Origin: a virus
Taxonomy: Duplodnaviria; Heunggongvirae; Uroviricota; Caudoviricetes
IMG/VR virus record: IMGVR_UViG_2700989507_000006
DNA length: 64,000 nucleotides
Direction: 5' to 3' (one strand)
The notes beneath the pieces are model-generated. The model was given only the letters and a program-made list of their open reading frames with translations. It searched no databases and was not told the origin of the DNA. Position numbers and translations under genes: made by a program. Positions 27,283 to 57,559 of the stretch are shown piece after piece (the stretch's first letter is position 1; each line of letters begins with the position of its first letter).

Positions 27283-28989
27283 TTGAGTAACTTACGCGAA
27301 TACCAGAATCGTATTGCAGATATCGCAAAACGCTCTAAAGCTGTGCTTGGCTGGGCAAGCACTGCGCAGTTCGGTACTGATAACCAATTCATTAAAGATG
27401 ATGCCGCGCGTGCCGCATCTATCCTTGAAGCTGCACGTAAAGACCCGGTTTTTGCGGGTATCTCTGATAATGCCACCGCTCAAATCGCTACAGCGTGGGC
27501 AAGTGCACTGGCTGACTACGCCGCAGCACATAAATCTATGCCGCGTCCGGAAATTCTGGCCTCCTGCCACCAGACGCTGGAAAACTGCCTGATTGAGTCC
27601 ACCCGCAATAGCATGGATGCCACTAATAAAGCGATGCTGGAATCCGTCGCAGCAGAGATGATGAGCGTTTCTGACGGTGTTATGCGTCTGCCTTTATTCC
27701 TCGCGATGATCCTGCCTGTTCAGTTGGGGGCAGCTACCGCTGATGCGTGTACCTTCATTCCGGTTACGCGTGACCAGTCCGACATCTATGAAGTCTTTAA
27801 CGTGGCAGGTTCCTCTTTTGGTTCTTATGCTGCTGGTGATGTTCTGGACATGCAATCCGTCGGTGTGTACAGCCAGTTACGCCGCCGCTATGTGCTGGTG
27901 GCAAGCTCCGATGGCACCAGCAAAACCGCAACCTTCAAGATGGAAGACTTCGAAGGCCAGAATGTACCAATCCGAAAAGGTCGCACTAACATCTACGTTA
28001 ACCGTATTAAGTCTGTTGTTGATAACGGTTCCGGCAGCCTACTTCACTCGTTTACTAATGCTGCTGGTGAGCAAATCACTGTTACCTGCTCTCTGAACTA
28101 CAACATTGGTCAGATTGCCCTGTCGTTCTCCAAAGCGCCGGATAAAGGCACTGAGATCGCAATTGAGACGGAAATCAATATTGAAGCCGCTCCTGAGCTG
28201 ATCCCGCTGATCAACCACGAAATGAAGAAATACACCCTGTTCCCAAGCCAGTTCGTTATCGCGGCTGAGCACACGGTACAGGCGGCGTATGAAGCACAGC
28301 GTGAATTTGGTCTGGACCTGGGTTCCCTACAGTTCCGCACCCTGAAGGAATACCTGTCTCATGAACAGGATATGCTGCGTCTTCGCATCATGATCTGGCG
28401 TACTCTTGCGACCGACACCTTTGACATCGCTCTGCCGGTTAACCAGTCCTTTGATGTATGGGCAACCATCATTCGTGGCAAATTCCAGACTGTATATCGC
28501 GACATTATTGAGCGCGTTAAATCTTCTGGTGCGATGGGGATGTTTGCTGGTGCTGATGCAGCATCTTTCTTCAAACAGTTGCCGAAGGATTTCTTCCAGC
28601 CAGCCGAAGACTATATCCAGACTCCGTATGTTCACTACATCGGTACCCTGTTCGGTAACGTGAAAGTGTACGAAGTACCTGCTGGTATTTGTAAGAACTT
28701 AACGACAGAGAACATTCAGTTCAGCTCGATGGATGTGCTGTGCTACGTCCGTGATGAAAATCCGGGTAAAGCAGGCTTCGTGACTGGTGATGCTGTCCCG
28801 GCCATCCCGTTCCAGCATCCGACCACTCCGGCGCTGGTCAACCGTACCACGCTGTGGGGTTCGGCTATCAACGATATGCACCCACGCAACGGCGCTGATT
28901 ACTTCACTCGTGTAACGCTGACAATGGCCAAAAAAGGCGGGCTTAACTTCATAAGCGGCGACACGATTGATGCCGGTGACTCTGAGTAA
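27283..28989 (+). CDS. major head (capsid) protein precursor candidate
   Basis: Likely TTG start 27283 after AAGGAAG RBS (track ORF from 27262); ~568 aa with Ala-rich helical N-terminal ~130 aa resembling a cleavable scaffold domain; size fits P1 gp23. Confidence 0.5.
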   Translation: MSNLREYQNRIADIAKRSKAVLGWASTAQFGTDNQFIKDDAARAASILEAARKDPVFAGISDNATAQIATAWASALADYAAAHKSMPRPEILASCHQTLENCLIESTRNSMDATNKAMLESVAAEMMSVSDGVMRLPLFLAMILPVQLGAATADACTFIPVTRDQSDIYEVFNVAGSSFGSYAAGDVLDMQSVGVYSQLRRRYVLVASSDGTSKTATFKMEDFEGQNVPIRKGRTNIYVNRIKSVVDNGSGSLLHSFTNAAGEQITVTCSLNYNIGQIALSFSKAPDKGTEIAIETEINIEAAPELIPLINHEMKKYTLFPSQFVIAAEHTVQAAYEAQREFGLDLGSLQFRTLKEYLSHEQDMLRLRIMIWRTLATDTFDIALPVNQSFDVWATIIRGKFQTVYRDIIERVKSSGAMGMFAGADAASFFKQLPKDFFQPAEDYIQTPYVHYIGTLFGNVKVYEVPAGICKNLTTENIQFSSMDVLCYVRDENPGKAGFVTGDAVPAIPFQHPTTPALVNRTTLWGSAINDMHPRNGADYFTRVTLTMAKKGGLNFISGDTIDAGDSE

Positions 28990-29049
28990 TCAGGGGAAGT
29001 TCTCCGTTTAACATAGCGCCCCCGTGCGGGGCGCATAACAGGGAAAGTT

Positions 29050-30639
29050 ATGTCTCAATATTCAATTCAACAGTCATTAGGTAATGCATCCGGCGTCGCG
29101 GTTAGCCCGATCAATGCCGATGCGACGTTATCTACCGGTGTTGCATTAAATAGCAGCTTGTGGGCTGGTATTGGCGTATTTGCGCGTGGCAAGCCGTTTA
29201 CTGTTCTGGCGGTTACTGAGTCCAATTACGAAGATGTTCTCGGCGAACCGCTGAAGCCGTCTTCCGGCTCACAGTTCGAACCAATTCGTCATGTGTACGA
29301 AGCTATTCAGCAAACGTCTGGTTATGTTGTTCGTGCTGTTCCGGATGATGCGAAGTTCCCGATTATTATGTTCGATGAATCAGGCGAACCGGCTTACAGT
29401 GCGTTGCCATACGGTTCTGAAATTGAACTTGATAGCGGCGAAGCCTTTGCTATCTACGTTGATGATGGTGATCCGTGTATTTCACCTACCCGTGAGTTAA
29501 CCATCGAAACGGCAACAGCGGACAGCGCAGGTAATGAACGCTTCCTCTTAAAACTGACCCAGACGACTTCGCTCGGTGTGGTAACGACCCTGGAGACACA
29601 TACTGTGTCTTTGGCGGAAGAAGCGAAAGATGACATGGGCCGCTTGTGTTATCTGCCTACGGCTCTGGAAGCCCGTTCTAAATATTTGCGCGCGGTTGTT
29701 AATGAAGAGCTGATTTCGACGGCGAAAGTAACAAATAAAAAATCGCTGGCGTTCACTGGCGGTACCAATGGCGATCAGTCGAACATTTCCACTGCCGCTT
29801 ACCTGCGTGCGGTTAAAGTGCTGAACAATGCGCCGTACATGTACACCGCTGTTCTCGGCCTGGGTTGCTATGACAATGCGGCGATCACCGCGTTAGGTAA
29901 TATCTGTTCTGATCGCCTGATTGATGGCTTCTTTGATGTCAAACCGACATTGACGTATACGGAAGCGCTCTCTGCTGTTGAAGATACCGGTTTACTTGGT
30001 ACCGATTATGTAAGCTGTGCTGTCTATCACTTCCCGTTCTCCTGCAAAGACAAATGGACCCAATCCCGTGTGGTCTTCGGTCTTTCTGGCGCGGCGTATG
30101 CGGCGAAAGCTCGTGGCGTCAAGAAAAACTCTGATGTCGGCGGTTGGCATTACTCACCGGCTGGTGAAGAACGTGCCGTCATTGCTCGTGCGTCAATTCA
30201 ACCGCTGTATCCGGAAGATACCCCGGACGAAGAAGCAATGGTTAAGGGCCGCCTCAATAAAGTATCTGTTGGCACCTCTGGCCAGATGATCATCGACGAT
30301 GCTTTAACTTGCTGCACGCAGGATAACTATCTGCACTTCCAGCACGTCCCATCCCTGATGAACGCAATCAGCCGTTTCTTTGTCCAGTTAGCCCGACAGA
30401 TGAAGCATAACCCGGACGGCATTACTGAGTCTGGCCTGACTAAAGGGATGACCAAACTTTTGGATCGCTTTGTCGCCTCCGGCGCTCTGGTGGCTCCTCG
30501 TGATCCTGATGCTGACGGTACAGAACCGTATGTGCTGAAAGTTACGCAGGCGGAATTCGATAAATGGGAAGTAGTCTGGGCCTGCTGCCCGACTGGCGTA
30601 GCCCGTCGTATCCAGGGCGTACCGCTGCTTATTAAGTAA
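29050..30639 (+). CDS. contractile tail sheath protein candidate
   Basis: 529 aa; central segment AVLGLGCYDNAAITALGNICSDRLIDGFFDV parallels sheath-family core; directly after major structural gene. Confidence 0.5.
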   Translation: MSQYSIQQSLGNASGVAVSPINADATLSTGVALNSSLWAGIGVFARGKPFTVLAVTESNYEDVLGEPLKPSSGSQFEPIRHVYEAIQQTSGYVVRAVPDDAKFPIIMFDESGEPAYSALPYGSEIELDSGEAFAIYVDDGDPCISPTRELTIETATADSAGNERFLLKLTQTTSLGVVTTLETHTVSLAEEAKDDMGRLCYLPTALEARSKYLRAVVNEELISTAKVTNKKSLAFTGGTNGDQSNISTAAYLRAVKVLNNAPYMYTAVLGLGCYDNAAITALGNICSDRLIDGFFDVKPTLTYTEALSAVEDTGLLGTDYVSCAVYHFPFSCKDKWTQSRVVFGLSGAAYAAKARGVKKNSDVGGWHYSPAGEERAVIARASIQPLYPEDTPDEEAMVKGRLNKVSVGTSGQMIIDDALTCCTQDNYLHFQHVPSLMNAISRFFVQLARQMKHNPDGITESGLTKGMTKLLDRFVASGALVAPRDPDADGTEPYVLKVTQAEFDKWEVVWACCPTGVARRIQGVPLLIK

Positions 30640-30648
30640 GGAAATACA

Positions 30649-31464
30649 ATGAGCAAAAACTTTTTTCAATCCGGGGCATTTTTGGGGAATGGACTGTCTC
30701 GTTTCGCTTTGAACTCTGATCCTGTGCAGTTGATGGAGTCTGCCCGAGCAAGCGCCGAACCGACAACAGATCCGGTTATTAATAATAATCCGGAACCGGC
30801 GGCACAGACTAACGATAACGTTCCATCTGCCACGGCTCCTGAGCAAATCCTGGAAGGGAAAGACGGTAAAGAATGGACCGTCGAACAGGCGCACCAGATG
30901 ATTCTGGAGGCTGCAAATCGAAGTGCTATGCAGAATGCGTTGAGTGATGCGGCCGACGCCGTTTTCGCCTGGGCTGATAGCGGTGATCTGACTTTCGACT
31001 CCCTTGATGGTTTCGTTCAGGCTATCGCTGGTATCTCTGATGACGACGACTCCGAAGTTACAGAAGAACAGGACGATGCCTATAACGAAGCATGGGCAAA
31101 TGTTGCTGACTTCCTCGCAGCATGCGGTGTAGATGATGACCTGATCGAAGCACTGGCTGACGATGAAGACGACGACGCAGCTGCTGATGTTGGTGCCTCT
31201 ATCGCTGGTTTAGATAGCGACGACCGTGACGAACTGGAAGCGGCGTTTGTTGTTGCTGGCACTTCTGATGAAATGCTGACTGAAGCATTTAAGAAGGTAG
31301 TTCGTAACGGTGAGATCAAACTCATCCGTAAACGCCTGCGTAAAAAACGTCTGACTGCGGCTCAAAAATCGGCGCTGAAAAAAGCACGCCGTAAAGCCCA
31401 GACCGGCGCGGCAAAACTGGCCCGCAAAAAGTCAATGAAACTGCGCCGTAAGCGCCTCGGCTAA
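30649..31464 (+). CDS. hypothetical protein with acidic body and polybasic C-terminal tail
   Basis: 271 aa; D/E-rich middle, last ~55 aa KKVVRNGEIKLIRKRLRKKRLTAAQKSALKKARRKAQTGAAKLARKKSMKLRRKRLG. Confidence 0.5.
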   Translation: MSKNFFQSGAFLGNGLSRFALNSDPVQLMESARASAEPTTDPVINNNPEPAAQTNDNVPSATAPEQILEGKDGKEWTVEQAHQMILEAANRSAMQNALSDAADAVFAWADSGDLTFDSLDGFVQAIAGISDDDDSEVTEEQDDAYNEAWANVADFLAACGVDDDLIEALADDEDDDAAADVGASIAGLDSDDRDELEAAFVVAGTSDEMLTEAFKKVVRNGEIKLIRKRLRKKRLTAAQKSALKKARRKAQTGAAKLARKKSMKLRRKRLG

Positions 31465-31499
31465 AGGAGGAGGCCGGAGAACTCCGGCCTTTAACTTGA

Positions 31500-32081
31500 A
31501 TGGCACCTATACCTTATGGGGTTTACAGCCAGGCTGACGGTGTATCGCCATTTCTGAAAGTTACTTTAACGAACTCTCAGTACCAGGTTACCGGATATAT
31601 CAGCCAGGGGGCGGCAATGAACATGGCCCAGAATTGGGAAGCACCTTTTACTGGTATGTCCATGGGTTCTGTTGCTGGTGCCTTCAGTGGTTTTGCGCAG
31701 GTTGGTACTGAAACAACGTCTGTTGCTCGTTGGAACAGCTTAATGGTTTGGGAAGGGGGAACACCGCCGACTTTCACGCTGCCAGTAACTTTCATCGCTT
31801 TGTTTGACCCATTCACGGAGGTTTCAGGAGCTATCGCCGCATTGTCAGCGATGATTAGCCCGGAACTCAAAGATGCCAGTATTGGTGGTCGAATCCCGGA
31901 GCGTGTGACGCTAAACATTGGTCGCCGGATCAACATCATTGATGTCGCTATCCAGGACATAAGTTTCGATCTCGATGCGCCCAGGGACAGCAATGGGCAT
32001 TTCCTGAAAAACACCGTCAACCTCCAGTTGACCGGTTCTTCGATATATAACAGCTCCGATATTGTTCGGGCGTTCCAGTAA
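31500..32081 (+). CDS. virion structural protein (tail tube candidate)
   Basis: 193 aa (~21 kDa); position downstream of sheath candidate. Confidence 0.35.
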   Translation: MAPIPYGVYSQADGVSPFLKVTLTNSQYQVTGYISQGAAMNMAQNWEAPFTGMSMGSVAGAFSGFAQVGTETTSVARWNSLMVWEGGTPPTFTLPVTFIALFDPFTEVSGAIAALSAMISPELKDASIGGRIPERVTLNIGRRINIIDVAIQDISFDLDAPRDSNGHFLKNTVNLQLTGSSIYNSSDIVRAFQ

Positions 32082-32092
32082 AAGGATTTTAT

Positions 32093-32602
32093 ATGGGGCA
32101 CAATAACACTAAGGGAAACCGTAAATTTATTAAGGGCCGCTATACTGCCAACGCGGCCAAAGGCGAACGACTGGTATCTTCTGAATTCCAGCTCACTTTT
32201 GCAGGCCATGAAGATATCAGCGTACTGGTTCGCACGTCGCAAATTCCTGAAATGACCCGCGAGGATGTGGAGGACTATGGTCCGAATGGTGTGAAGTTCA
32301 ACCAGCACGGACCAATTCGAAACTCTGGGGAAATCCAGGTCCAGTGCGTGGAGACTATCGAAGGCGATATTCTTCAGTTCATCAAGGATCGCATTGCGGC
32401 GAAGGACTATGTTGATATCACGATGGCTGCTACCCCTGAATCCAAATCTTCCGGGGTTAACGCTGTGACAAAAGCTGCTACAACAATTGAAATGTTGGAC
32501 TGCAAAATCTACAGTGATGCAATCGACTTTAGTACCGAAGATGTGACTGCCGCTGTGCGCCCGTCACTTCGTATCGTCTACAACTGGATTGAGTGGGATT
32601 AA
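32093..32602 (+). CDS. virion structural protein (tail tube or tube-associated candidate)
   Basis: 169 aa; last gene before a strong terminator. Confidence 0.35.
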   Translation: MGHNNTKGNRKFIKGRYTANAAKGERLVSSEFQLTFAGHEDISVLVRTSQIPEMTREDVEDYGPNGVKFNQHGPIRNSGEIQVQCVETIEGDILQFIKDRIAAKDYVDITMAATPESKSSGVNAVTKAATTIEMLDCKIYSDAIDFSTEDVTAAVRPSLRIVYNWIEWD

Positions 32603-32621
32603 GAGTCATCCCTTGTATTTT

Positions 32622-32647
32622 AAAGCTCCTTCGGGAGCTTTTTTTAT
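32622..32647 (+). terminator. intrinsic terminator
   Basis: agctcc-ttcg-ggagct stem-loop followed by ttttttt. Confidence 0.6.
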
Positions 32648-32737
32648 AACTATTTTATATAAACATGCATCGATAACATTGTCTGGAGTTTTATGTTAGA
32701 TTATTAATGTTCTAATAAACTACAATTATTGAGGTAG

Positions 32738-33370
32738 ATGTTTGTGCCTGTACTGTTAAAGGGGGACTCTAAAATGGCTGTGATTCCAATGTCGTACTCC
32801 CCGGGTACTGTCGCTCGTCGATTTTCGATCCTGGACGGAGTTACCATCCAAGGTGTGCTTTACCAGGTTATATGGGATTCCAAAACCCCATTTGCAGCTG
32901 TAATAGAGGCTGCGCCTTCTATTATCGATGGTGATATGCGCCATAAGGTTGTAGCTACTCTTGAACTTCAACGTCGCCCGCAGCTTGAAGGCGTACTGGT
33001 AAGGAAGTTCTGGGAGGATAGCGATGTTGCCCAGATTGAAGGTATCGTGGTTGATGGAACCGTCCGGGATGTCGGTTTAGCTACTTTTGTTTACGAAACC
33101 GTAGCCTCAAAAGCTGGTGTTGTTTTGCTCAGTGATAATGAGCAATACGAAGGTGGAAAAGCTCTTTGGCAACACATCGCCCGTCGCTCTTCCGAGCTAA
33201 AAGTGTTTATCCTTGACACCGATGCCGCTCAGTATTACCCGTTTGACGGCGAACGTGTTTGCTATGACGGGGTAAGTATTCCTGAATCCGAGATATGGAG
33301 TGAACACCCAGATCGAAGTAAGCATGGGGTTGTTCTGGTCGCTGAATCCATAATTGGAAATGCGGCATAG
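32738..33370 (+). CDS. hypothetical protein
   Basis: 210-aa ORF (probable start MAVIPMSY at 32774); isolated between terminator and lytic replicon. Confidence 0.4.
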   Translation: MFVPVLLKGDSKMAVIPMSYSPGTVARRFSILDGVTIQGVLYQVIWDSKTPFAAVIEAAPSIIDGDMRHKVVATLELQRRPQLEGVLVRKFWEDSDVAQIEGIVVDGTVRDVGLATFVYETVASKAGVVLLSDNEQYEGGKALWQHIARRSSELKVFILDTDAAQYYPFDGERVCYDGVSIPESEIWSEHPDRSKHGVVLVAESIIGNAA

Positions 33371-38962: not shown

Positions 38963-39553
<591 letters not shown>

Positions 39554-39563
39554 GGGGGCTGAT

Positions 39564-40175
39564 ATGGGGCTTAATGTTGCTTCAGTAAAGTCTTATGTAT
39601 CTTCGGCATTAACGACGACATTATTTGGCTCCGGCGTTGGTGAGCGGGAAGTTGGTAAGCTGACGTCAATCATCATGAACAAAATGCTGTTCGCGCAAGG
39701 ATGGCAGTTCTCTGTCGAAGTTGATGGTCTGGAGGGGGCAGACTTCTTTGCTAAAGACATTACCTACCACGATTACAGCATCGAATATGAAACGATTAAA
39801 ATCGGCGGAGGGAATATCCTTCAGCCAACGGAGCGTTCGCCTGGGCAGATAACAATGATGGTCAGGGATACCGTTGATGGCCTCGTTTTGGACTGGTTTA
39901 AGACGGCAAAAGGTCGGGTGATCAATCCGGACGGTACCGGGAATATACCGTCTAAATATTTGCTCAATGTGCGTATTTATCGGTTGCTGTCCTCCGGTTT
40001 AACCAAACTGGAAAATGAGATGACGGTATTCCCGGTCACTACCGGCGATGTCACCTATGCGCGAGATCAGGTTACGGAATTTAAGTCATTCCCAATGACC
40101 TTCGCATTGCACAGCACGTTTAACCAATCCTCAAGTTCTTTAGCTTCCCTTCTGGGCTTTAGTTTTTCTCTTTGA
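39564..40175 (+). CDS. tail tube-like structural protein candidate
   Basis: 203 aa; position two genes upstream of tape-measure-like gene. Confidence 0.35.
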   Translation: MGLNVASVKSYVSSALTTTLFGSGVGEREVGKLTSIIMNKMLFAQGWQFSVEVDGLEGADFFAKDITYHDYSIEYETIKIGGGNILQPTERSPGQITMMVRDTVDGLVLDWFKTAKGRVINPDGTGNIPSKYLLNVRIYRLLSSGLTKLENEMTVFPVTTGDVTYARDQVTEFKSFPMTFALHSTFNQSSSSLASLLGFSFSL

Positions 40176-40189
40176 ATTAAGGAGCAAGG

Positions 40190-41071
40190 ATGCTTTTACC
40201 TCTTTTCCCGCTACCATCGCGGCCAACTGAATTGATCCAGTTCCGTCAGCCAAATATTGCTGATGCGATGCGTTTCAACTCGATAACACCGGAGGAACAA
40301 GAACAACAGACAACGGCGTATTTAAAAGCCTTGCTGGCTGAACCCGCGAAATATGATCCCCTGACATGGACGGCGCAGGACCGGATTACCGCGTTATGGT
40401 GGATATTTACTGGCTCCCGTGAAACACCGGTCGAGACATTCACCTACACCTGTAAACATTGTGGTAAAGAGCATTATTACGATTGCGATATGAATGCTCT
40501 GGCTGAAGATATCCAGGTCCTGGAAGTGGAACCGTTCATTGACGATATTGAGGTGTCTGTAGAGGGCGTGCCTTATCAATGGCGTATCGTGCCGCTTGAT
40601 GGTTGGGCAATGGAAATGCTGGAGATGCGCCGTGCAGCATTGCCACCTGAAGACGACGCGGAATTCAAAGAAGCGATCGTTGATTTGCGTTTTTGGGAAT
40701 TCGCTTATCAGTGTGAACTTTATAACGATGTTAGCGGTACTCGTGAAGAGCAGGCTGAGCGTCGTTATGAAACGATCAAACGGATGGCCATTGATACTGA
40801 ATTTATGAAGCTGGCGGCACACATCCGGCTGGCTCATGAAAAGCTCGAACATGGTTTACCGTGCTACATCGATAAAGGCGAAATGCGTCTTCGTCTCCCG
40901 CCGCACAAATGCCCAAACCAGGATACAAAGGAGTCCACAGAGGGTGCGTATACCCGTCTGTGGGTGCCCTTTCGGGCTACCGACTTCATTCCACAGGTGG
41001 GGATTGAAAAGCTATCAGACCTTAGTGTCCAACCTGGTTTTGTATGGGGGTATACCGATTCAGGACGCTGA
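40190..41071 (+). CDS. hypothetical protein with zinc-ribbon motif (possible tail assembly chaperone)
   Basis: 293 aa; CKHCGKEHYYDCD; overlapping alternative-frame ORF extends to 41141. Confidence 0.5.
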   Translation: MLLPLFPLPSRPTELIQFRQPNIADAMRFNSITPEEQEQQTTAYLKALLAEPAKYDPLTWTAQDRITALWWIFTGSRETPVETFTYTCKHCGKEHYYDCDMNALAEDIQVLEVEPFIDDIEVSVEGVPYQWRIVPLDGWAMEMLEMRRAALPPEDDAEFKEAIVDLRFWEFAYQCELYNDVSGTREEQAERRYETIKRMAIDTEFMKLAAHIRLAHEKLEHGLPCYIDKGEMRLRLPPHKCPNQDTKESTEGAYTRLWVPFRATDFIPQVGIEKLSDLSVQPGFVWGYTDSGR

Positions 41072-55639: not shown

Positions 55640-57559
55640 ATGGAACAGTTCAATATCAATAAAGGGGTGACGATCAAGCCTGGGCTTGACGTGCTTCCCC
55701 CGCCAGTGACTGATGATGAATATCGCGCATTAATGGCCGGTGAGGACCGCTATCTGATGACGGAATCCAACACCCTGGAGGAAATCGAGGCTACGTTCTT
55801 CTATGACACGCCGATCCACTGGTGTGCTACGGATTTATTGGAGGCGATTAGTTCTACTCGTTTGCAGTTACACCGGACCATGCAGGCATTTGTCCGGGCA
55901 TTGAACCAGAAGCTGAATGGTACCGGAATCTCTGCGGGGAGTGATAAAACGGGGGATGTGGCCCAGAGCGGCGCGCGCGCGATCGGCGGCGCTGAAATTG
56001 GCCGGGCACGTAACGTTAACGGGCTGCCAGTCCTGCCAGCCATTATTCCGCTCAGTGATGGTCAGACTATCAGTATTCTGTTTCATAGCCCGACAGCGGA
56101 AAACCGGATCACCAATAGCGATACGCTGGTTGCTTTCCAGTTCTTACTGAATAAAAAAGACGTTACTCACACCGTTGCTCCGATGAGTGGACGTGATATG
56201 ACGCTGGCGCAGGTCACCATGAAACTTGCCAACCTTGCAGAGAAAAACTCGGCAAAATTCCAGCGTGCGCAGAAGAAGAAAAAAGCCCTTGTTGATGAAA
56301 TAACCCAACTACAGGCTGACAGTGACCAGAAAGAGGATGCCATGAGCGACCTCGCGGATCAGGTGGCAGCGGTAGAAGGGCAGAAGGCAGATCTGGAGCA
56401 GAAAATTAACGCTGTTGCATCGGAAGCGGATTCTCTTTATGAAGAGAATGAGCGTTTGCAGACGGAGATTGATCAGCTCAATCGCACTGGTGGGCGCGAT
56501 ACCATTGCTCCAGCGGGGATGACTGGTGGGCACTCTCGCGCGCTGACGGATCGCCTTGCCAGTATCAAAAATCGTATGCATATGGACGGGGAAGTGACGC
56601 TCAGTAATGGTGCATCAATGAAGCAATTCATTGGGGGCGGCGAAGGGTATATCCAGTTAACCGATCCGGATGGCAGCGTATACATGATCAAGGCTAAATC
56701 CATACAGGGTGTGGACATGGCAGATGCGATCGGCAAGCTGTTTAAAGCCTATAAAGCGGGTAATGTATCGGAATACCTGGTCCAACCAGAAGAACATAAA
56801 CCGGAAAACGTCGAACCTGAACCAGCGGAGGATACCGGTAGCTCTTCGCCTGAACCAGAAGTCTCTGTAGGTGCATATCGATATGCCCTGCAAATGCGTC
56901 CGGCGGCCCCTGGCGCAATACCTGAAGGTAACAAAGCAATTCTGCCGCGCCCTGATGAAGGTGACCCGTATTATGAATATGCACGCTACGGCATTGCTAC
57001 TTACGATACCCCGCTTTCTGATCAGCAAATGAGTGAGTACGACCTGAAGTTATTGCCTCGCGAGGATTCTTTCGACTTCCTGGCGAAGACACTTACTAAT
57101 GGTCCGTTTGGCAAATATGCACAAAAAGCTCTGGAGCTGGCCACCAGCTCACCAGACGAGTTCCGCGTAATGCTGAAAACTCAGTTTCAAAAAACTTTCC
57201 CCAATATTGCGTTTCCTGGGGGCGCTGGCACCGAGAAAATGGTGCAGAGCATGATCAATGCATTGCAGGCCGAAGTCGGTGAGATTACTCAGCCAGAACC
57301 GGCCCCGGCACAGCCTGATGAAACGGTTAGCGAAGCAGATGCAGAGGCTAATAAAGCCATTGAATATCTCAATAACGTGATGGATATACAAAGCACTGAC
57401 ATGGCGGAGATCCGTAACGCCCGGGGCAATGTCCGGGAAGCGATTGCAGCCCTTCAGGCTGCCGGACGTTTTGAGGAAAACGAAGAGCTGGTTAACGGCG
57501 CAGCTCGCCACCTGGCTGATCTGCTGGTAGCAATCCAGAAAGCGGGGGTAGCGGCATGA
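55640..57559 (+). CDS. darA: head-packaged antirestriction protein DarA-type
   Basis: 639-aa ORF in operon after holin/antiholin and hdf; coiled-coil middle, Pro/Glu-rich linker; size matches P1 DarA as remembered. Confidence 0.6.
   Translation: MEQFNINKGVTIKPGLDVLPPPVTDDEYRALMAGEDRYLMTESNTLEEIEATFFYDTPIHWCATDLLEAISSTRLQLHRTMQAFVRALNQKLNGTGISAGSDKTGDVAQSGARAIGGAEIGRARNVNGLPVLPAIIPLSDGQTISILFHSPTAENRITNSDTLVAFQFLLNKKDVTHTVAPMSGRDMTLAQVTMKLANLAEKNSAKFQRAQKKKKALVDEITQLQADSDQKEDAMSDLADQVAAVEGQKADLEQKINAVASEADSLYEENERLQTEIDQLNRTGGRDTIAPAGMTGGHSRALTDRLASIKNRMHMDGEVTLSNGASMKQFIGGGEGYIQLTDPDGSVYMIKAKSIQGVDMADAIGKLFKAYKAGNVSEYLVQPEEHKPENVEPEPAEDTGSSSPEPEVSVGAYRYALQMRPAAPGAIPEGNKAILPRPDEGDPYYEYARYGIATYDTPLSDQQMSEYDLKLLPREDSFDFLAKTLTNGPFGKYAQKALELATSSPDEFRVMLKTQFQKTFPNIAFPGGAGTEKMVQSMINALQAEVGEITQPEPAPAQPDETVSEADAEANKAIEYLNNVMDIQSTDMAEIRNARGNVREAIAALQAAGRFEENEELVNGAARHLADLLVAIQKAGVAA

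What the first reader, a model, noticed from the sequence alone, without database searches (positions are those of the whole stretch)
30649..31464. Protein with acidic body and extreme polybasic tail between sheath and tube candidates
The 271-aa protein is D/E-rich in the middle and ends with ~55 residues containing more than 20 K/R. That charge architecture suggests a nucleic-acid-binding or packaged internal protein, or a molecular ruler/chaperone, in a slot where myoviruses usually encode only sheath and tube.
Basis: seen in the sequence. Interest (0 to 1): 0.4.

Follow-up and report, generated by a model that had tools for sequence, protein, structure and literature searches.

The report
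P1 gene 21: likely head-core protein
The acidic protein with a polybasic tail is the phage P1 gene 21 product, labelled a tail part in databases, but its sequence says it is built into the immature phage head and cut up by the head-maturation protease, like the T4 core protein gp68, which may fill P1's "missing scaffold" gap.

Summary
ORF 30649-31464(+) encodes 271 aa with an acidic helical body and a 56-residue tail holding 25 K/R. The window is a P1-like phage-plasmid and the ORF is the homolog of P1 gene 21, annotated "baseplate or tail tube".

Published virion proteomics does not list gp21, and three cryo-EM papers on P1 do not mention it. The true tube is BplB.

New here: gp21 carries five copies of hydrophobic-hydrophobic-Glu|Ser/Ala, against 0.3 expected. 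This is the motif at the Edman-verified cleavage site of the P1 capsid protein. Nine tail and baseplate proteins have none in about 4,750 aa.

Across 54 diverse P1-like loci, the residue before the cut (E, D or A) switches together in the capsid propeptide and in the gp21 sites. This happened in at least three lineages.

The conserved basic tail aligns profile-to-profile with the C-terminal module of T4 gp68, a prohead core protein degraded by the T4 protease (E 1.9e-5; 0 of 150 shuffles reach the score).

Best reading (0.68): a gp68-like prohead core or scaffold protein processed by the capsid protease. Main rival: a non-virion tail-assembly factor, supported only by old amber phenotypes that may be polar on pmgG and bplB. 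The new reading is computational and readily testable.

The parts
30649..31464 (+). Homolog of P1 gene 21 (gp21), 271 aa, PHROG 1053 'unknown function'; proposed prohead core protein
30638..30643 (+). Shine-Dalgarno-like AAGGAA, 5 nt before the ATG
   Evidence: sequence read directly
30649..30738 (+). Residues 1-30: N-terminal segment ending in site A (LME|S). Proposed propeptide or capsid-targeting-like segment. Low AF2 confidence
30730..30741 (+). Site A, residues 28-31 LMES: predicted cut after E30. Conserved as h-h-E/D-S/A/G in the family and covaries with the capsid-protein site
30847..30858 (+). Residues 67-70 ILEG: additional motif copy in the disordered linker; conservation across the family was not examined
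30880..31257 (+). Residues 78-203: acidic all-helical bundle (block pLDDT 77-93, mostly about 90). No significant fold match
30901..30912 (+). Site B, residues 85-88 ILEA: predicted cut after E87. Conserved in the P1-proximal half of the family and covaries (E/D/A) with the capsid-protein site
31141..31152 (+). Residues 165-168 LIEA: additional motif copy inside the helical domain
31276..31287 (+). Site C, residues 210-213 LTEA: predicted cut after E212, in a flexible linker (pLDDT<50). The position before the cut is E or D in 96% of 201 aligned members, the position after it is A/S/G in 96%. Covaries with the capsid-protein site
31285..31461 (+). Residues 213-271: polybasic module (beta-hairpin KVVRNGEIKLI plus helix-turn-helix, net +25, 6.8 kDa). 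Most conserved part. Occurs duplicated or standalone in other phages. Aligns with the C-terminal module of T4 gp68
27283..27642 (+). Context: N-terminal 120-aa propeptide of the major capsid protein (gene 23 homolog). It holds 3 copies of the motif, the mature part none
   Evidence: PMC9024508
27634..27645 (+). Context: capsid-protein maturation site MLE|S (E120|S121), identical to the Edman-verified P1 site (mature N-terminus SVAAEM)
   Evidence: PMC9024508
55835..55846 (+). Context: DarA residues 66-69 LLE|A, at the boundary of the N-terminal 69 residues that are invisible in the cryo-EM model. Second likely substrate site of the same protease
   Evidence: PMC12810830
29050..30639 (+). Context: tail sheath (gene 22 homolog), directly upstream in the same late operon
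31500..32602 (+). Context: pmgG (tube-linking) and bplB (tail tube), essential genes directly downstream. Likely targets of polarity from gene 21 nonsense mutations
   Evidence: PMC9024508, PMC10304247

Best explanation
The ORF is the P1 gene 21 product. It is most likely a component of the prohead interior, a core or scaffold-type protein related in its basic module to T4 gp68, and not a tail part.

Inferred mechanism:
- The protein is co-assembled inside the procapsid.
- Its conserved C-terminal basic module (beta-hairpin plus helix-turn-helix, +25) anchors it. The partner could be the inner shell or propeptide layer, the acidic bodies of neighbouring copies (a block polyampholyte, -34/+24), or later the DNA.
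- The acidic helical bundle fills and organises the core.
- The capsid-maturation protease that removes the 120-aa propeptide of gp23 (presumed to be Pro) then cuts gp21 after Glu at h-h-E|S/A sites. The sites are E30, E87 and E212, and probably E69 and E167.
- This yields acidic fragments of 2-8 kDa, which leave the head or are expelled by incoming DNA. It also frees a 59-residue polybasic peptide.

Shown here:
- the charge architecture and its conservation;
- the motif enrichment;
- co-variation of the site residues with the capsid-protein site;
- profile similarity of the basic module to T4 gp68.

From the literature: the gp23 cleavage site, and the absence of gp21 from the virion protein list and cryo-EM accounts consulted.

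Inferred only: prohead location, actual cleavage, the scaffolding or size-determining role, and the fate of the basic peptide.
For: (1) Motif enrichment. gp21 has 5 copies of [LIMVF][LIMVFT]E[SAG] against 0.30 expected from shuffles (0 of 2000 shuffles reach 5). That is 1.85 per 100 aa, the highest density in the window. Nine tail and baseplate proteins (PmgG, BplB, Tub, PmgB, Sit, BplA, gp16, S, gp5) have 0 in about 4,750 aa. gp23 has 3, all in the cleaved propeptide, including the verified MLE|S. DarA has 2, both in the N-terminal 69 aa missing from the mature model (PMC9024508; PMC12810830).

(2) The two best-conserved sites flank the helical domain in low-confidence, flexible linkers.

(3) Co-variation in 54 diverse P1-like loci. 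The residue before the capsid-protein cut and that of gp21 site C are E/E in 42 loci, D/D in 9, and A/A or A/S in 2, with 1 ambiguous locus. The D state occurs in a deep clade and again in L137/L140, nested among E phages, where the capsid site and sites A, B and C are all D. The A state occurs in L084 (capsid LLLA|SV, gp21 ALFA|SV) and L111 (LMLA|SA, LMLA|AV).

(4) Motif density switches class only in the capsid propeptide and gp21. In 41 E phages, hhE runs at 1.90 and 1.06 per 100 aa, against 0.06-0.33 in seven other structural proteins. In 10 D phages, hhD runs at 1.56 and 1.12. In 2 A phages, hhA runs at 2.09 and 1.07.

(5) Within-genome identity of the six residues around the cut, capsid site against gp21 sites, exceeds shuffled genome pairings: P=2e-4 (site A), 4e-4 (site B), 2e-4 (site C). 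Fisher test for E against non-E gives 3e-9; the loci are not phylogenetically independent.

(6) hhalign of the gp21 family against the T4 gp68 family: probability 77.6%, E 1.9e-5, 56 columns. The match covers the whole basic module, ends at the extreme C-terminus in both families, and in both is preceded by h-x-E. The reversed control scores 15.7. In 150 block-preserving column shuffles the mean is 17.4, sd 4.0, max 30.0, against 38.8 observed. T4 gp68 shows the same acidic-N, basic-C layout. It is a prohead core protein of about 240 copies, non-essential, degraded by the gp21 protease at L/I-x-E, and linked to head size (PMC9958956, PMC9026906).

(7) gp21 is not among the virion LC-MS/MS proteins in the Table 1 rows seen: gene positions 54, 55, 57 and 58 are listed, 56 is not. 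'gp21' does not occur in the text of PMC10304247, PMC12810830 or bioRxiv 2025.07.21.665459.

(8) Both P1 papers state that no separate scaffolding protein has been identified.

(9) The prt-pro operon lacks the usual scaffold and capsid genes. gene 21 shares the late operon LP23 with the capsid gene.

(10) A standalone 76-aa version of the module (P0246) lies between a T4-type capsid gene and the sheath gene. It has a 13-aa N-terminal LDE|GR segment resembling that phage's putative capsid site ISE|GR.
Against: Classical genetics: P1 gene 21 was defined by amber mutants classed as tail-defective, hence the GenBank annotation 'baseplate or tail tube'. I could not read the original papers.

Gene position: in all 54 loci the gene sits immediately after the sheath gene and before tube-like genes. 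On position alone that suggests a tail role.

No experiment shows gp21 in proheads or shows it cleaved.

The motif was defined after looking at the sequences, although the D and A lineages act as an independent test.

The similarity to gp68 is limited to a 56-column, compositionally biased module at 78% probability. gp21 does not hit the gp68 PHROG.

P1 already has a 120-aa capsid propeptide thought sufficient for scaffolding.

The identity of the protease (Pro) rests on the literature. These tools found no similarity between Pro and known prohead proteases.
Confidence: 0.68

Rival explanations
1. Non-virion tail-assembly factor. gp21 would act in the cytoplasm as a chaperone, cap or initiator for baseplate-tube or tube-sheath polymerisation and be discarded before the particle is complete. 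For example, the basic tail could occupy the negatively charged tube lumen or keep BplB or the sheath unpolymerised.
For: The annotation 'baseplate or tail tube' comes from amber-mutant phenotypes. Position is invariant between sheath and PmgG/BplB in 54 loci. Absence from virion accounts fits a chaperone too. CRISPRi knock-down of 21 abolishes plating. The tube lumen is reported to be negatively charged (PMC10304247).
Against: This reading does not explain why the protein carries 3-5 copies of the capsid-maturation cleavage motif, nor why the residue before the cut changes E to D or A together with the capsid propeptide in separate lineages, while seven other structural proteins of the same operon (sheath, tube and tail proteins) show no such pattern. 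It also leaves the similarity of the basic module to T4 prohead core protein gp68 unexplained. The genetic evidence is confounded. 21 lies upstream of essential pmgG and bplB in one late operon. The CRISPRi authors state that essentiality can be assigned only to the last required gene of a transcript. No sequence or fold link to any chaperone family was found.
Confidence: 0.17
2. Structural tail tube or baseplate protein of the virion, as many database records name it ('tail tube protein Gp21', 'putative baseplate protein').
For: Only propagated names in GenBank and UniRef.
Against: AF2 predicts an all-helical bundle plus disordered regions, not a tube beta-sandwich. There are no tube or baseplate family hits. 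Cryo-EM assigns the tube to BplB, the initiator to Tub and the linker to PmgG, and names the baseplate proteins it identified, with gp21 not among them. gp21 is not in the virion LC-MS/MS rows seen, although it has four tryptic peptides of 15-22 aa.
Confidence: 0.02
3. Cytoplasmic nucleic-acid-binding regulator, for example of late mRNA or DNA. The basic tail would bind RNA or DNA and the acidic body would act as an autoinhibitory mimic, with no link to particle assembly.
For: The extreme polybasic helix-turn-helix tail. Standalone basic modules of 61-76 aa exist.
Against: The gene always sits within the structural late operon. Protease-site grammar and its co-variation point to the prohead interior. 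The module resembles that of a known prohead core protein. No similarity to any nucleic-acid-binding family was found.
Confidence: 0.03

Closest known systems
T4 gp68 prohead core protein (precomputed Pfam PF26830; phrog_1049 'head scaffolding protein')
   Same: Acidic N-terminal part plus polybasic C-terminal module ending ...RKK(S/A)(M/L)K.RK.LG(L) at the extreme C-terminus. The module aligns profile-to-profile over 56 columns (E 1.9e-5, z about 5 against shuffles). In both it is preceded by a hydrophobic-x-Glu protease motif, and there are several such motifs in the acidic part. Neither is reported as an intact protein of mature virions: gp68 is degraded by the head protease (PMC9958956). 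Both are encoded next to sheath, tube and capsid genes: T4 order 18-19-20-67-68-21-22-23, P1 order 23-22-21-pmgG-bplB.
   Different: gp21 is twice as long (271 against 141 aa). It has a confidently predicted 125-aa helical bundle and an N-terminal propeptide-like segment with no counterpart alignment in gp68. gp68 has a 14-residue insertion in the module. gp21 does not score against the gp68 PHROG, and gp68 does not score against PHROG 1053. Cleavage and prohead location are experimental for gp68 and only inferred for gp21.
T4 gp22 major scaffolding core protein (Pfam PF25623 T4_CASP)
   Same: Similar size (269 aa), acidic, helical, multiply cleaved at h-x-E sites by the prohead protease, absent as an intact protein from virions (PMC9026906).
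   Different: No detectable sequence relationship (hhalign probability 0.1%). gp22 has no polybasic tail.
T4 internal proteins IPI-III and their capsid targeting sequence; P1 DarB N-terminal targeting signal
   Same: Short N-terminal segment ending in a protease motif (gp21 residues 1-30 ending LME|S). Basic cargo that could stay with the DNA. P1 is known to target proteins to the head through N-terminal signals (PMC9024508).
   Different: No sequence similarity between the N-termini of gp21, DarB and DarA. The T4 internal proteins remain in the virion as detectable proteins, whereas gp21 has not been detected. Targeting by the gp21 N-terminus is untested.
P22-type scaffolding proteins (C-terminal basic helix-turn-helix that binds coat protein)
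   Same: Elongated or helical acidic body with a basic C-terminal helix-turn-helix as the most conserved, partner-binding element (comparison from general knowledge).
   Different: No Pfam or PDB sequence match. P22 scaffold exits intact and is recycled, whereas gp21 is predicted to be cut into pieces.
Tail assembly chaperones (lambda gpG/gpGT, P2 gpE/E+E')
   Same: Acidic, non-virion, encoded within a tail gene cluster.
   Different: Those lie between the tube and tape-measure genes and use a programmed frameshift. Here the gene lies between the sheath gene and pmgG, and pmgB is the gene directly before the tape measure. There is no family hit. Chaperones are not known to carry capsid-protease sites.

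Membership tests
T4 gp68-like prohead core proteins | Direct family-model hit (phrog_1049 or Pfam PF26830) | tested here: not met
   gp21 and 43 relatives hit only phrog_1053. gp68 hits phrog_1049 and not 1053. PF26830 is absent from the local Pfam copy.
T4 gp68-like prohead core proteins | Conserved polybasic C-terminal module | tested here: met
   hhalign A2 against A5: probability 77.6%, E 1.9e-5, 56 columns. Module-only A3 against A5: E 1.2e-4. Reversed control 15.7; 150 shuffles max 30.0 against 38.8 observed.
T4 gp68-like prohead core proteins | Multiple cleavage motifs of the cognate prohead protease | tested here: met
   Five motif copies against 0.3 expected. The copies covary with the capsid-protein maturation site in 54 loci. 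This is sequence evidence only.
T4 gp68-like prohead core proteins | Physical presence in the prohead core and degradation on maturation | not testable with these tools
   Only indirect support: gp21 is not in the virion proteome rows seen and not named in the cryo-EM accounts.
Contractile-tail tube proteins (T4 gp19-like) | Tube beta-sandwich fold or a family hit | tested here: not met
Contractile-tail tube proteins (T4 gp19-like) | Present in the assembled tail | tested here: not met
   Literature read here: the tube is BplB, the initiator Tub, the linker PmgG; gp21 is not listed.
Tail assembly chaperones (gpG/GT type) | Gene located between the tube and tape-measure genes, immediately before the tape measure | tested here: not met
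   Gene order is sheath-21-pmgG-bplB-pmgC-tub-pmgB-sit. pmgB precedes sit.
Tail assembly chaperones (gpG/GT type) | Programmed -1 frameshift extension | not tested
   No slippery-site analysis was done. The ORF ends at a conserved C-terminus in 204 relatives.
Tape measure or ruler proteins | Length scales with tail or tape-measure length | tested here: not met
   Tape measure is 611, 961, 1142 and 1130 aa in L085, L084, L086 and the window. The gp21 homolog is 229, 233, 232 and 271 aa.
P22-like scaffolding proteins | Family-model or solved-structure sequence match | tested here: not met
   No Pfam family for gp21 or 43 relatives. No PDB sequence match.

The most novel reading that the evidence does not exclude
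After cleavage at E212|A213, the 59-residue peptide (+25, pI 12, 6.8 kDa) is not expelled. It stays in the DNA-filled head as a protamine-like, DNA-neutralising internal peptide and may be co-injected, comparable to adenovirus mu/pVII or a basic counterpart of the T4 internal peptides. The acidic body would then serve as a cleavable 'antidote' and scaffold. Such a peptide would have escaped all published analyses. Trypsin cuts it into fragments of at most 7 residues, and DNA-bound peptides are invisible to cryo-EM averaging. Standalone and duplicated versions of the module in other phage lineages fit an autonomous function for the module.
Probability: 0.25. Interest if true: 0.75.

Novelty: new member of a known kind. 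Interest (0 to 1): 0.62.

Why it matters
P1 is a classical model phage, yet gene 21 still carries a forty-year-old phenotype label that databases have propagated as 'tail tube protein'. Two recent P1 structure papers state that no separate scaffolding protein has been found.

If gene 21 encodes a protease-processed head-core protein, four things follow:
- A classical P1 gene moves from the tail to the head.
- P1 gains a T4-like core component, which is relevant to its unusual production of big, small and minute heads.
- A large uncharacterised family gets a testable function. The family is PHROG 1053, with 608 clusters at 50% identity.
- The approach is reusable: co-variation of protease-site residues between a capsid propeptide and candidate proteins can find prohead-internal proteins from sequence alone.

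The predicted cleavage sites and the 59-aa basic peptide can be checked directly.

Tried and rejected
Family, sequence and fold searches that found nothing useful:
- Pfam on gp21 and on 43 relatives: nothing.
- PDB sequence search with the single sequence and with a profile: only noise.
- Foldseek against BFVD: nothing with E below 0.06.
- PHROGs: only phrog_1053, function unknown.

Comparisons with specific proteins:
- hhalign against T4 gp22: no relation.
- P1 Pro against T4 gp21 by BLASTP, against PDB and against Pfam: no relation detectable. The identity of the protease therefore rests on the literature.

Hypotheses rejected:
- Ruler: tape-measure length varies almost two-fold while gp21 length does not.
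- Synteny as a discriminator between head and tail roles: useless, because all 54 loci carry both a P1-type capsid gene and a P1-type sheath gene next to the gene.

Searches that failed or were uninformative:
- The search for related loci with A2 failed because no stretch was conserved enough.
- With A1 it returned only near-identical P1 relatives.
- With P0215 it found nothing.
- The module-only database search returned mainly short fragments.
- The hit P0252 in a T4-like contig (L096, opposite strand, next to a DHFR gene, E 6e-6) is probably not informative.

Papers I could not read: Lobocka 2004 and Walker & Walker 1983 are not held. The exact gene 21 mutant phenotype and how the ORF was assigned to gene 21 therefore remain unverified.

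The small gene between the capsid and sheath genes in relatives has no motif enrichment and was set aside.
Full report
**1. What is there**

The window is a P1-like phage-plasmid (Punavirus). It has repA, parA and parB at 23.4-27.1 kb, followed by homologs of P1 genes 23 (capsid), 22 (sheath), 21, pmgG and bplB. On the opposite strand lie repL, kilA and ant. The region 30000-32700 is 96-99% identical in DNA to P1, P7, SJ46 and RCS47.

The flagged ORF, 30649-31464(+), is the homolog of P1 gene 21. GenBank AF234172 annotates it 'baseplate or tail tube'. Other records call it 'tail tube protein Gp21', 'tail protein', 'putative baseplate protein' or hypothetical.

**2.

- The protein is 271 aa, 29.2 kDa, pI 4.55.
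- Residues 100-200 hold 34 D/E and 1 K/R.
- The last 56 residues hold 25 K/R and 1 D/E.
- No shuffle in 20,000 gives a 56-aa window above +15; the observed value is +24.
- 95% of 204 relatives keep the acidic body and basic tail.

AlphaFold2 on a 26-sequence alignment gives these regions:
- a low-confidence N-terminus (residues 1-75);
- a confident helical bundle (78-203, block pLDDT 77-93);
- a floppy linker (208-224);
- a beta-hairpin followed by a basic helix-turn-helix (237-270).

The family has no Pfam model, no PDB relative and no significant fold match. It equals PHROG 1053, 'unknown function'. It is large: 608 clusters at 50% identity with E at or below 1e-3. The basic tail is the most conserved part. 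It behaves as an autonomous module, duplicated in some relatives (P0188, P0212, P0215 and a jumbo-phage contig L093) and standalone at 61-76 aa in others.

**3. What the literature says**

- The virion LC-MS/MS table rows I saw in Gonzales et al. 2022 list BplB, PmgG, gp22 and gp23 (gene positions 54, 55, 57, 58). Position 56, gp21, is not among them (PMC9024508). gp21 nevertheless has four tryptic peptides of 15-22 aa.
- Cryo-EM assigns the tube to BplB, the terminator to gp24 and the sheath to gp22 (PMC10304247). A later paper names the head, connector and baseplate proteins it identified (PMC12810830). A 2025 preprint covers the tail-baseplate complex. The term 'gp21' does not occur in the text of any of the three.
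- Both P1 papers note that no separate scaffolding protein has been identified and propose that the 120-aa gp23 propeptide does the job.
- CRISPRi knock-down of 21 abolishes plating. The authors stress that roadblocks are polar, so essentiality can be assigned only to the last required gene of a transcript. 21 lies upstream of essential pmgG and bplB (PMC10695390).
- I could not obtain Walker & Walker 1983 or Lobocka 2004.

**4. Gene context**

In four distant P1-like phages (Mailhella, Vibrio and two metagenomic contigs), and then in about 50 further IMG/VR loci, the order is invariant. It runs capsid, sometimes a small variable gene, sheath, gp21 homolog, PmgG, BplB, PmgC, Tub, PmgB, tape measure, PmgA, BplA, gp16.

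Tape-measure length ranges from 611 to 1142 aa while the gp21 homolog stays at 229-271 aa. That excludes a ruler role.

Every locus has both the P1-type capsid gene and the P1-type sheath gene, so synteny cannot decide between a head and a tail role. T4 also interleaves these genes: 18 sheath, 19 tube, 20 portal, 67, 68, 21 protease, 22 scaffold, 23 capsid.

**5. The decisive sequence signal**

The P1 capsid protein is cut between E120 and S121, in the sequence ...AMLE|SVAAEM (Edman sequencing, PMC9024508). The window has the identical site.

gp21 contains LME|S (residues 28-31), ILE|G (67-70), ILE|A (85-88), LIE|A (165-168) and LTE|A (210-213). That is five matches to [LIMVF][LIMVFT]E[SAG], against 0.30 expected from shuffles (0 of 2000 shuffles reach five).

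For comparison:
- Nine tail and baseplate proteins totalling about 4,750 aa have none.
- gp23 has three, all inside the removed propeptide.
- DarA has two, both in its N-terminal 69 residues. One is LLE|A at 66-69, exactly at the boundary of the part invisible in the cryo-EM model. DarA is known to lose about 9 kDa from its N-terminus (PMC12810830).

Sites A (E30) and C (E212) are conserved across 204 relatives. At site C the residue before the cut is E or D in 96%, and the residue after it is A, S or G in 96%. Both sites fall in flexible linkers flanking the helical domain.

**6. Co-variation**

I used 54 diverse loci. The residue before the capsid-protein cut and that of gp21 site C pair as follows:
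- E/E in 42 loci;
- D/D in 9 loci;
- A/A or A/S in 2 loci;
- one ambiguous locus, L118, whose capsid propeptide has both an E and a D site.

On a sheath neighbour-joining tree the D state occupies a deep clade (L104-107, L110, L115, L121). It appears again independently in L137/L140, nested among E phages, where the capsid site and gp21 sites A, B and C are all Asp. The A state occurs in L084 (capsid LLLA|SV, gp21 ALFA|SV) and in L111 (LMLA|SA, LMLA|AV).

Motif density switches class only in the capsid propeptide and in gp21:

| Phage group | Motif | Capsid propeptide (per 100 aa) | gp21 homolog (per 100 aa) | Other proteins |
|---|---|---|---|---|
| 41 E phages | hhE[SAG] | 1.90 | 1.06 | 0.06-0.33 (mature capsid, sheath, PmgG, BplB, PmgC, Tub, PmgB) |
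| 10 D phages | hhD[SAG] | 1.56 | 1.12 | 0-0.34 |
| 2 A phages | hhA[SAG] | 2.09 | 1.07 | 0-0.38 |

In the D phages, hhE falls to 0.30 in the propeptide and 0.26 in gp21.

Within-genome identity of the six residues around the cut, capsid site against gp21 sites, beats shuffled genome pairings at P=2e-4 (A), 4e-4 (B) and 2e-4 (C).

The simplest reading is that the protease which matures the capsid protein also cuts gp21. That places gp21 inside the prohead.

**7. Link to a known core protein**

A profile of the gp21 family aligns with T4 gp68 and with a 16-member gp68 family profile over the entire basic module:
- gp21 residues 215-271 align with gp68 residues 71-140;
- probability 77.6%, E 1.9e-5;
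- there is one 14-residue insertion in gp68;
- both alignments end at the extreme C-terminus...RKK(S/A)(M/L)K.RK.LG(L).

Controls support a real similarity. The reversed gp68 alignment scores 15.7. In 150 block-preserving column shuffles the mean is 17.4, sd 4.0 and max 30.0, against 38.8 observed.

gp68 has the same layout at half the size, with an acidic N-part and a basic C-module preceded by LNE|F. It is a prohead core protein of about 240 copies. It is dispensable for assembly, degraded by the T4 gp21 protease (which cuts after L/I-x-E), and implicated in head-size determination (PMC9958956, PMC9026906). T4 gp22 shows no similarity.

**8. Weaker supporting context**

A standalone 76-aa module (P0246, contig L095) lies between a T4-type capsid gene and the sheath gene. 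Its 13-residue N-terminal segment ends LDE|GR, like that phage's putative capsid site ISE|GR. It is followed by three paralogs sharing an N-terminus MFDIEIEPDEG.

A protein with two modules in a 205-kb contig lies 5.7 kb upstream of a Peptidase_S77 head protease.

**9. Interpretation and its limits**

Best explanation (0.68): gp21 is a gp68-like prohead core or scaffold protein processed by the capsid protease.

Predicted products:

| Residues | Net charge or size |
|---|---|
| 1-30 | neutral |
| 31-69 | -5 |
| 70-87 | -2 |
| 88-167 | -20 |
| 168-212 | -15 |
| 213-271 | +25, 6.8 kDa |

What the basic module binds (shell, propeptide, neighbouring acidic bodies or DNA) is not known, nor is the fate of the released peptide.

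The main conflict is the classical tail-defective amber phenotype. It can be reconciled by polarity on pmgG and bplB, which lie in the same LP23 late operon. Gonzales et al. also remark that heads look amorphous in tail-defective lysates, which could mask a head phenotype. This reconciliation is an assumption, so the tail-assembly-factor rival keeps 0.17.

The protease's identity (Pro) rests on the literature. These tools find no similarity between Pro and known prohead proteases, and its PHROG carries the label 'tail fiber protein'.

The motif was defined after inspecting the sequences. The D and A lineages, analysed afterwards, serve as an independent check.

**10. Verdict**

The finding is real and the protein is a known gene. 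Its database function is almost certainly wrong for 'tail tube', and probably wrong for 'tail' altogether. The new reading makes it a new member of a known kind, the protease-processed prohead core proteins. It addresses an explicit gap in P1 biology and is directly testable.

Noticed in passing
window 29016-29034: GC-rich inverted repeat GCGCCCCCGTGCGGGGCGC in the 60-nt gap between the capsid gene (23) and the sheath gene (22), with no T-run after it. It could be an attenuator or an RNA-stability element that sets the capsid-to-tail expression ratio within the LP23 late operon.
   Followed up: no
window 32738-33370 (+): A 210-aa ORF (phrog_7522, unknown; weak sub-threshold GNAT acetyltransferase hit) sits where P1 has the 99-aa pmgF. 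P1 and P7 cover only 98% of the 30000-32700 query, while SJ46 and RCS47 cover 100%. The window is therefore closer to the SJ46/RCS47 type of P1-like plasmid here.
   Followed up: partly
L095 10243-11877 (and 10001-10231): In a 110-kb myophage contig with a T4-type capsid gene, the standalone basic module is followed by three paralogous genes of about 177 aa. They share the N-terminus MFDIEIEP(D/N)(E/A)G, reminiscent of the T4 internal-protein cluster with a common capsid-targeting and cleavage peptide.
   Followed up: partly
L093 9533-10429: A 205-kb (jumbo) phage contig encodes a 298-aa protein with two copies of the basic module, acidic spacers and two CxxC pairs (Zn-ribbon-like). It lies 5.7 kb upstream of a 529-aa Peptidase_S77 protease with a coiled-coil C-terminal extension.
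   Followed up: partly
L094 3015-4034 (P1 pro, outside the window): P1 Pro, the presumed prohead protease, has no Pfam hit, no PDB sequence hit and no BLASTP similarity to T4 gp21. Its PHROG (1801) is labelled 'tail fiber protein', apparently a mislabel. Its C-terminal part contains LLE|S and HLE|A, which could be self-cleavage sites.
   Followed up: partly
L002 7924-8235; L084 7952-8377; L085 7823-8371; L086 7996-8373: Distant P1-like phages have a small, highly variable gene (103-182 aa, partly Ala/Pro/Glu-rich) between the capsid and sheath genes. It is absent from P1 and from the window, and it shows no protease-motif enrichment. It may be a decoration or accessory protein.
   Followed up: partly
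window 38987-41071 (188, 203 and 293 aa ORFs) and L087: In AF234172 the 293-aa gene directly upstream of sit is annotated pmgB and the 203-aa gene is tub. The 188-aa ORF upstream of tub should then be pmgC. Table 1 of PMC9024508 lists PmgC as 31.9 kDa, which fits the 293-aa product better. There may be a naming or size inconsistency between the papers and the GenBank record.
   Followed up: no
window 55640-57559 (darA), residues 66-69: LLE|A at DarA 66-69 coincides with the end of the N-terminal 69 residues missing from the cryo-EM model. N-terminal sequencing of mature DarA gave no clear signal in PMC9024508, so this is a specific prediction for the unresolved DarA processing site (new N-terminus A69).
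   Followed up: partly
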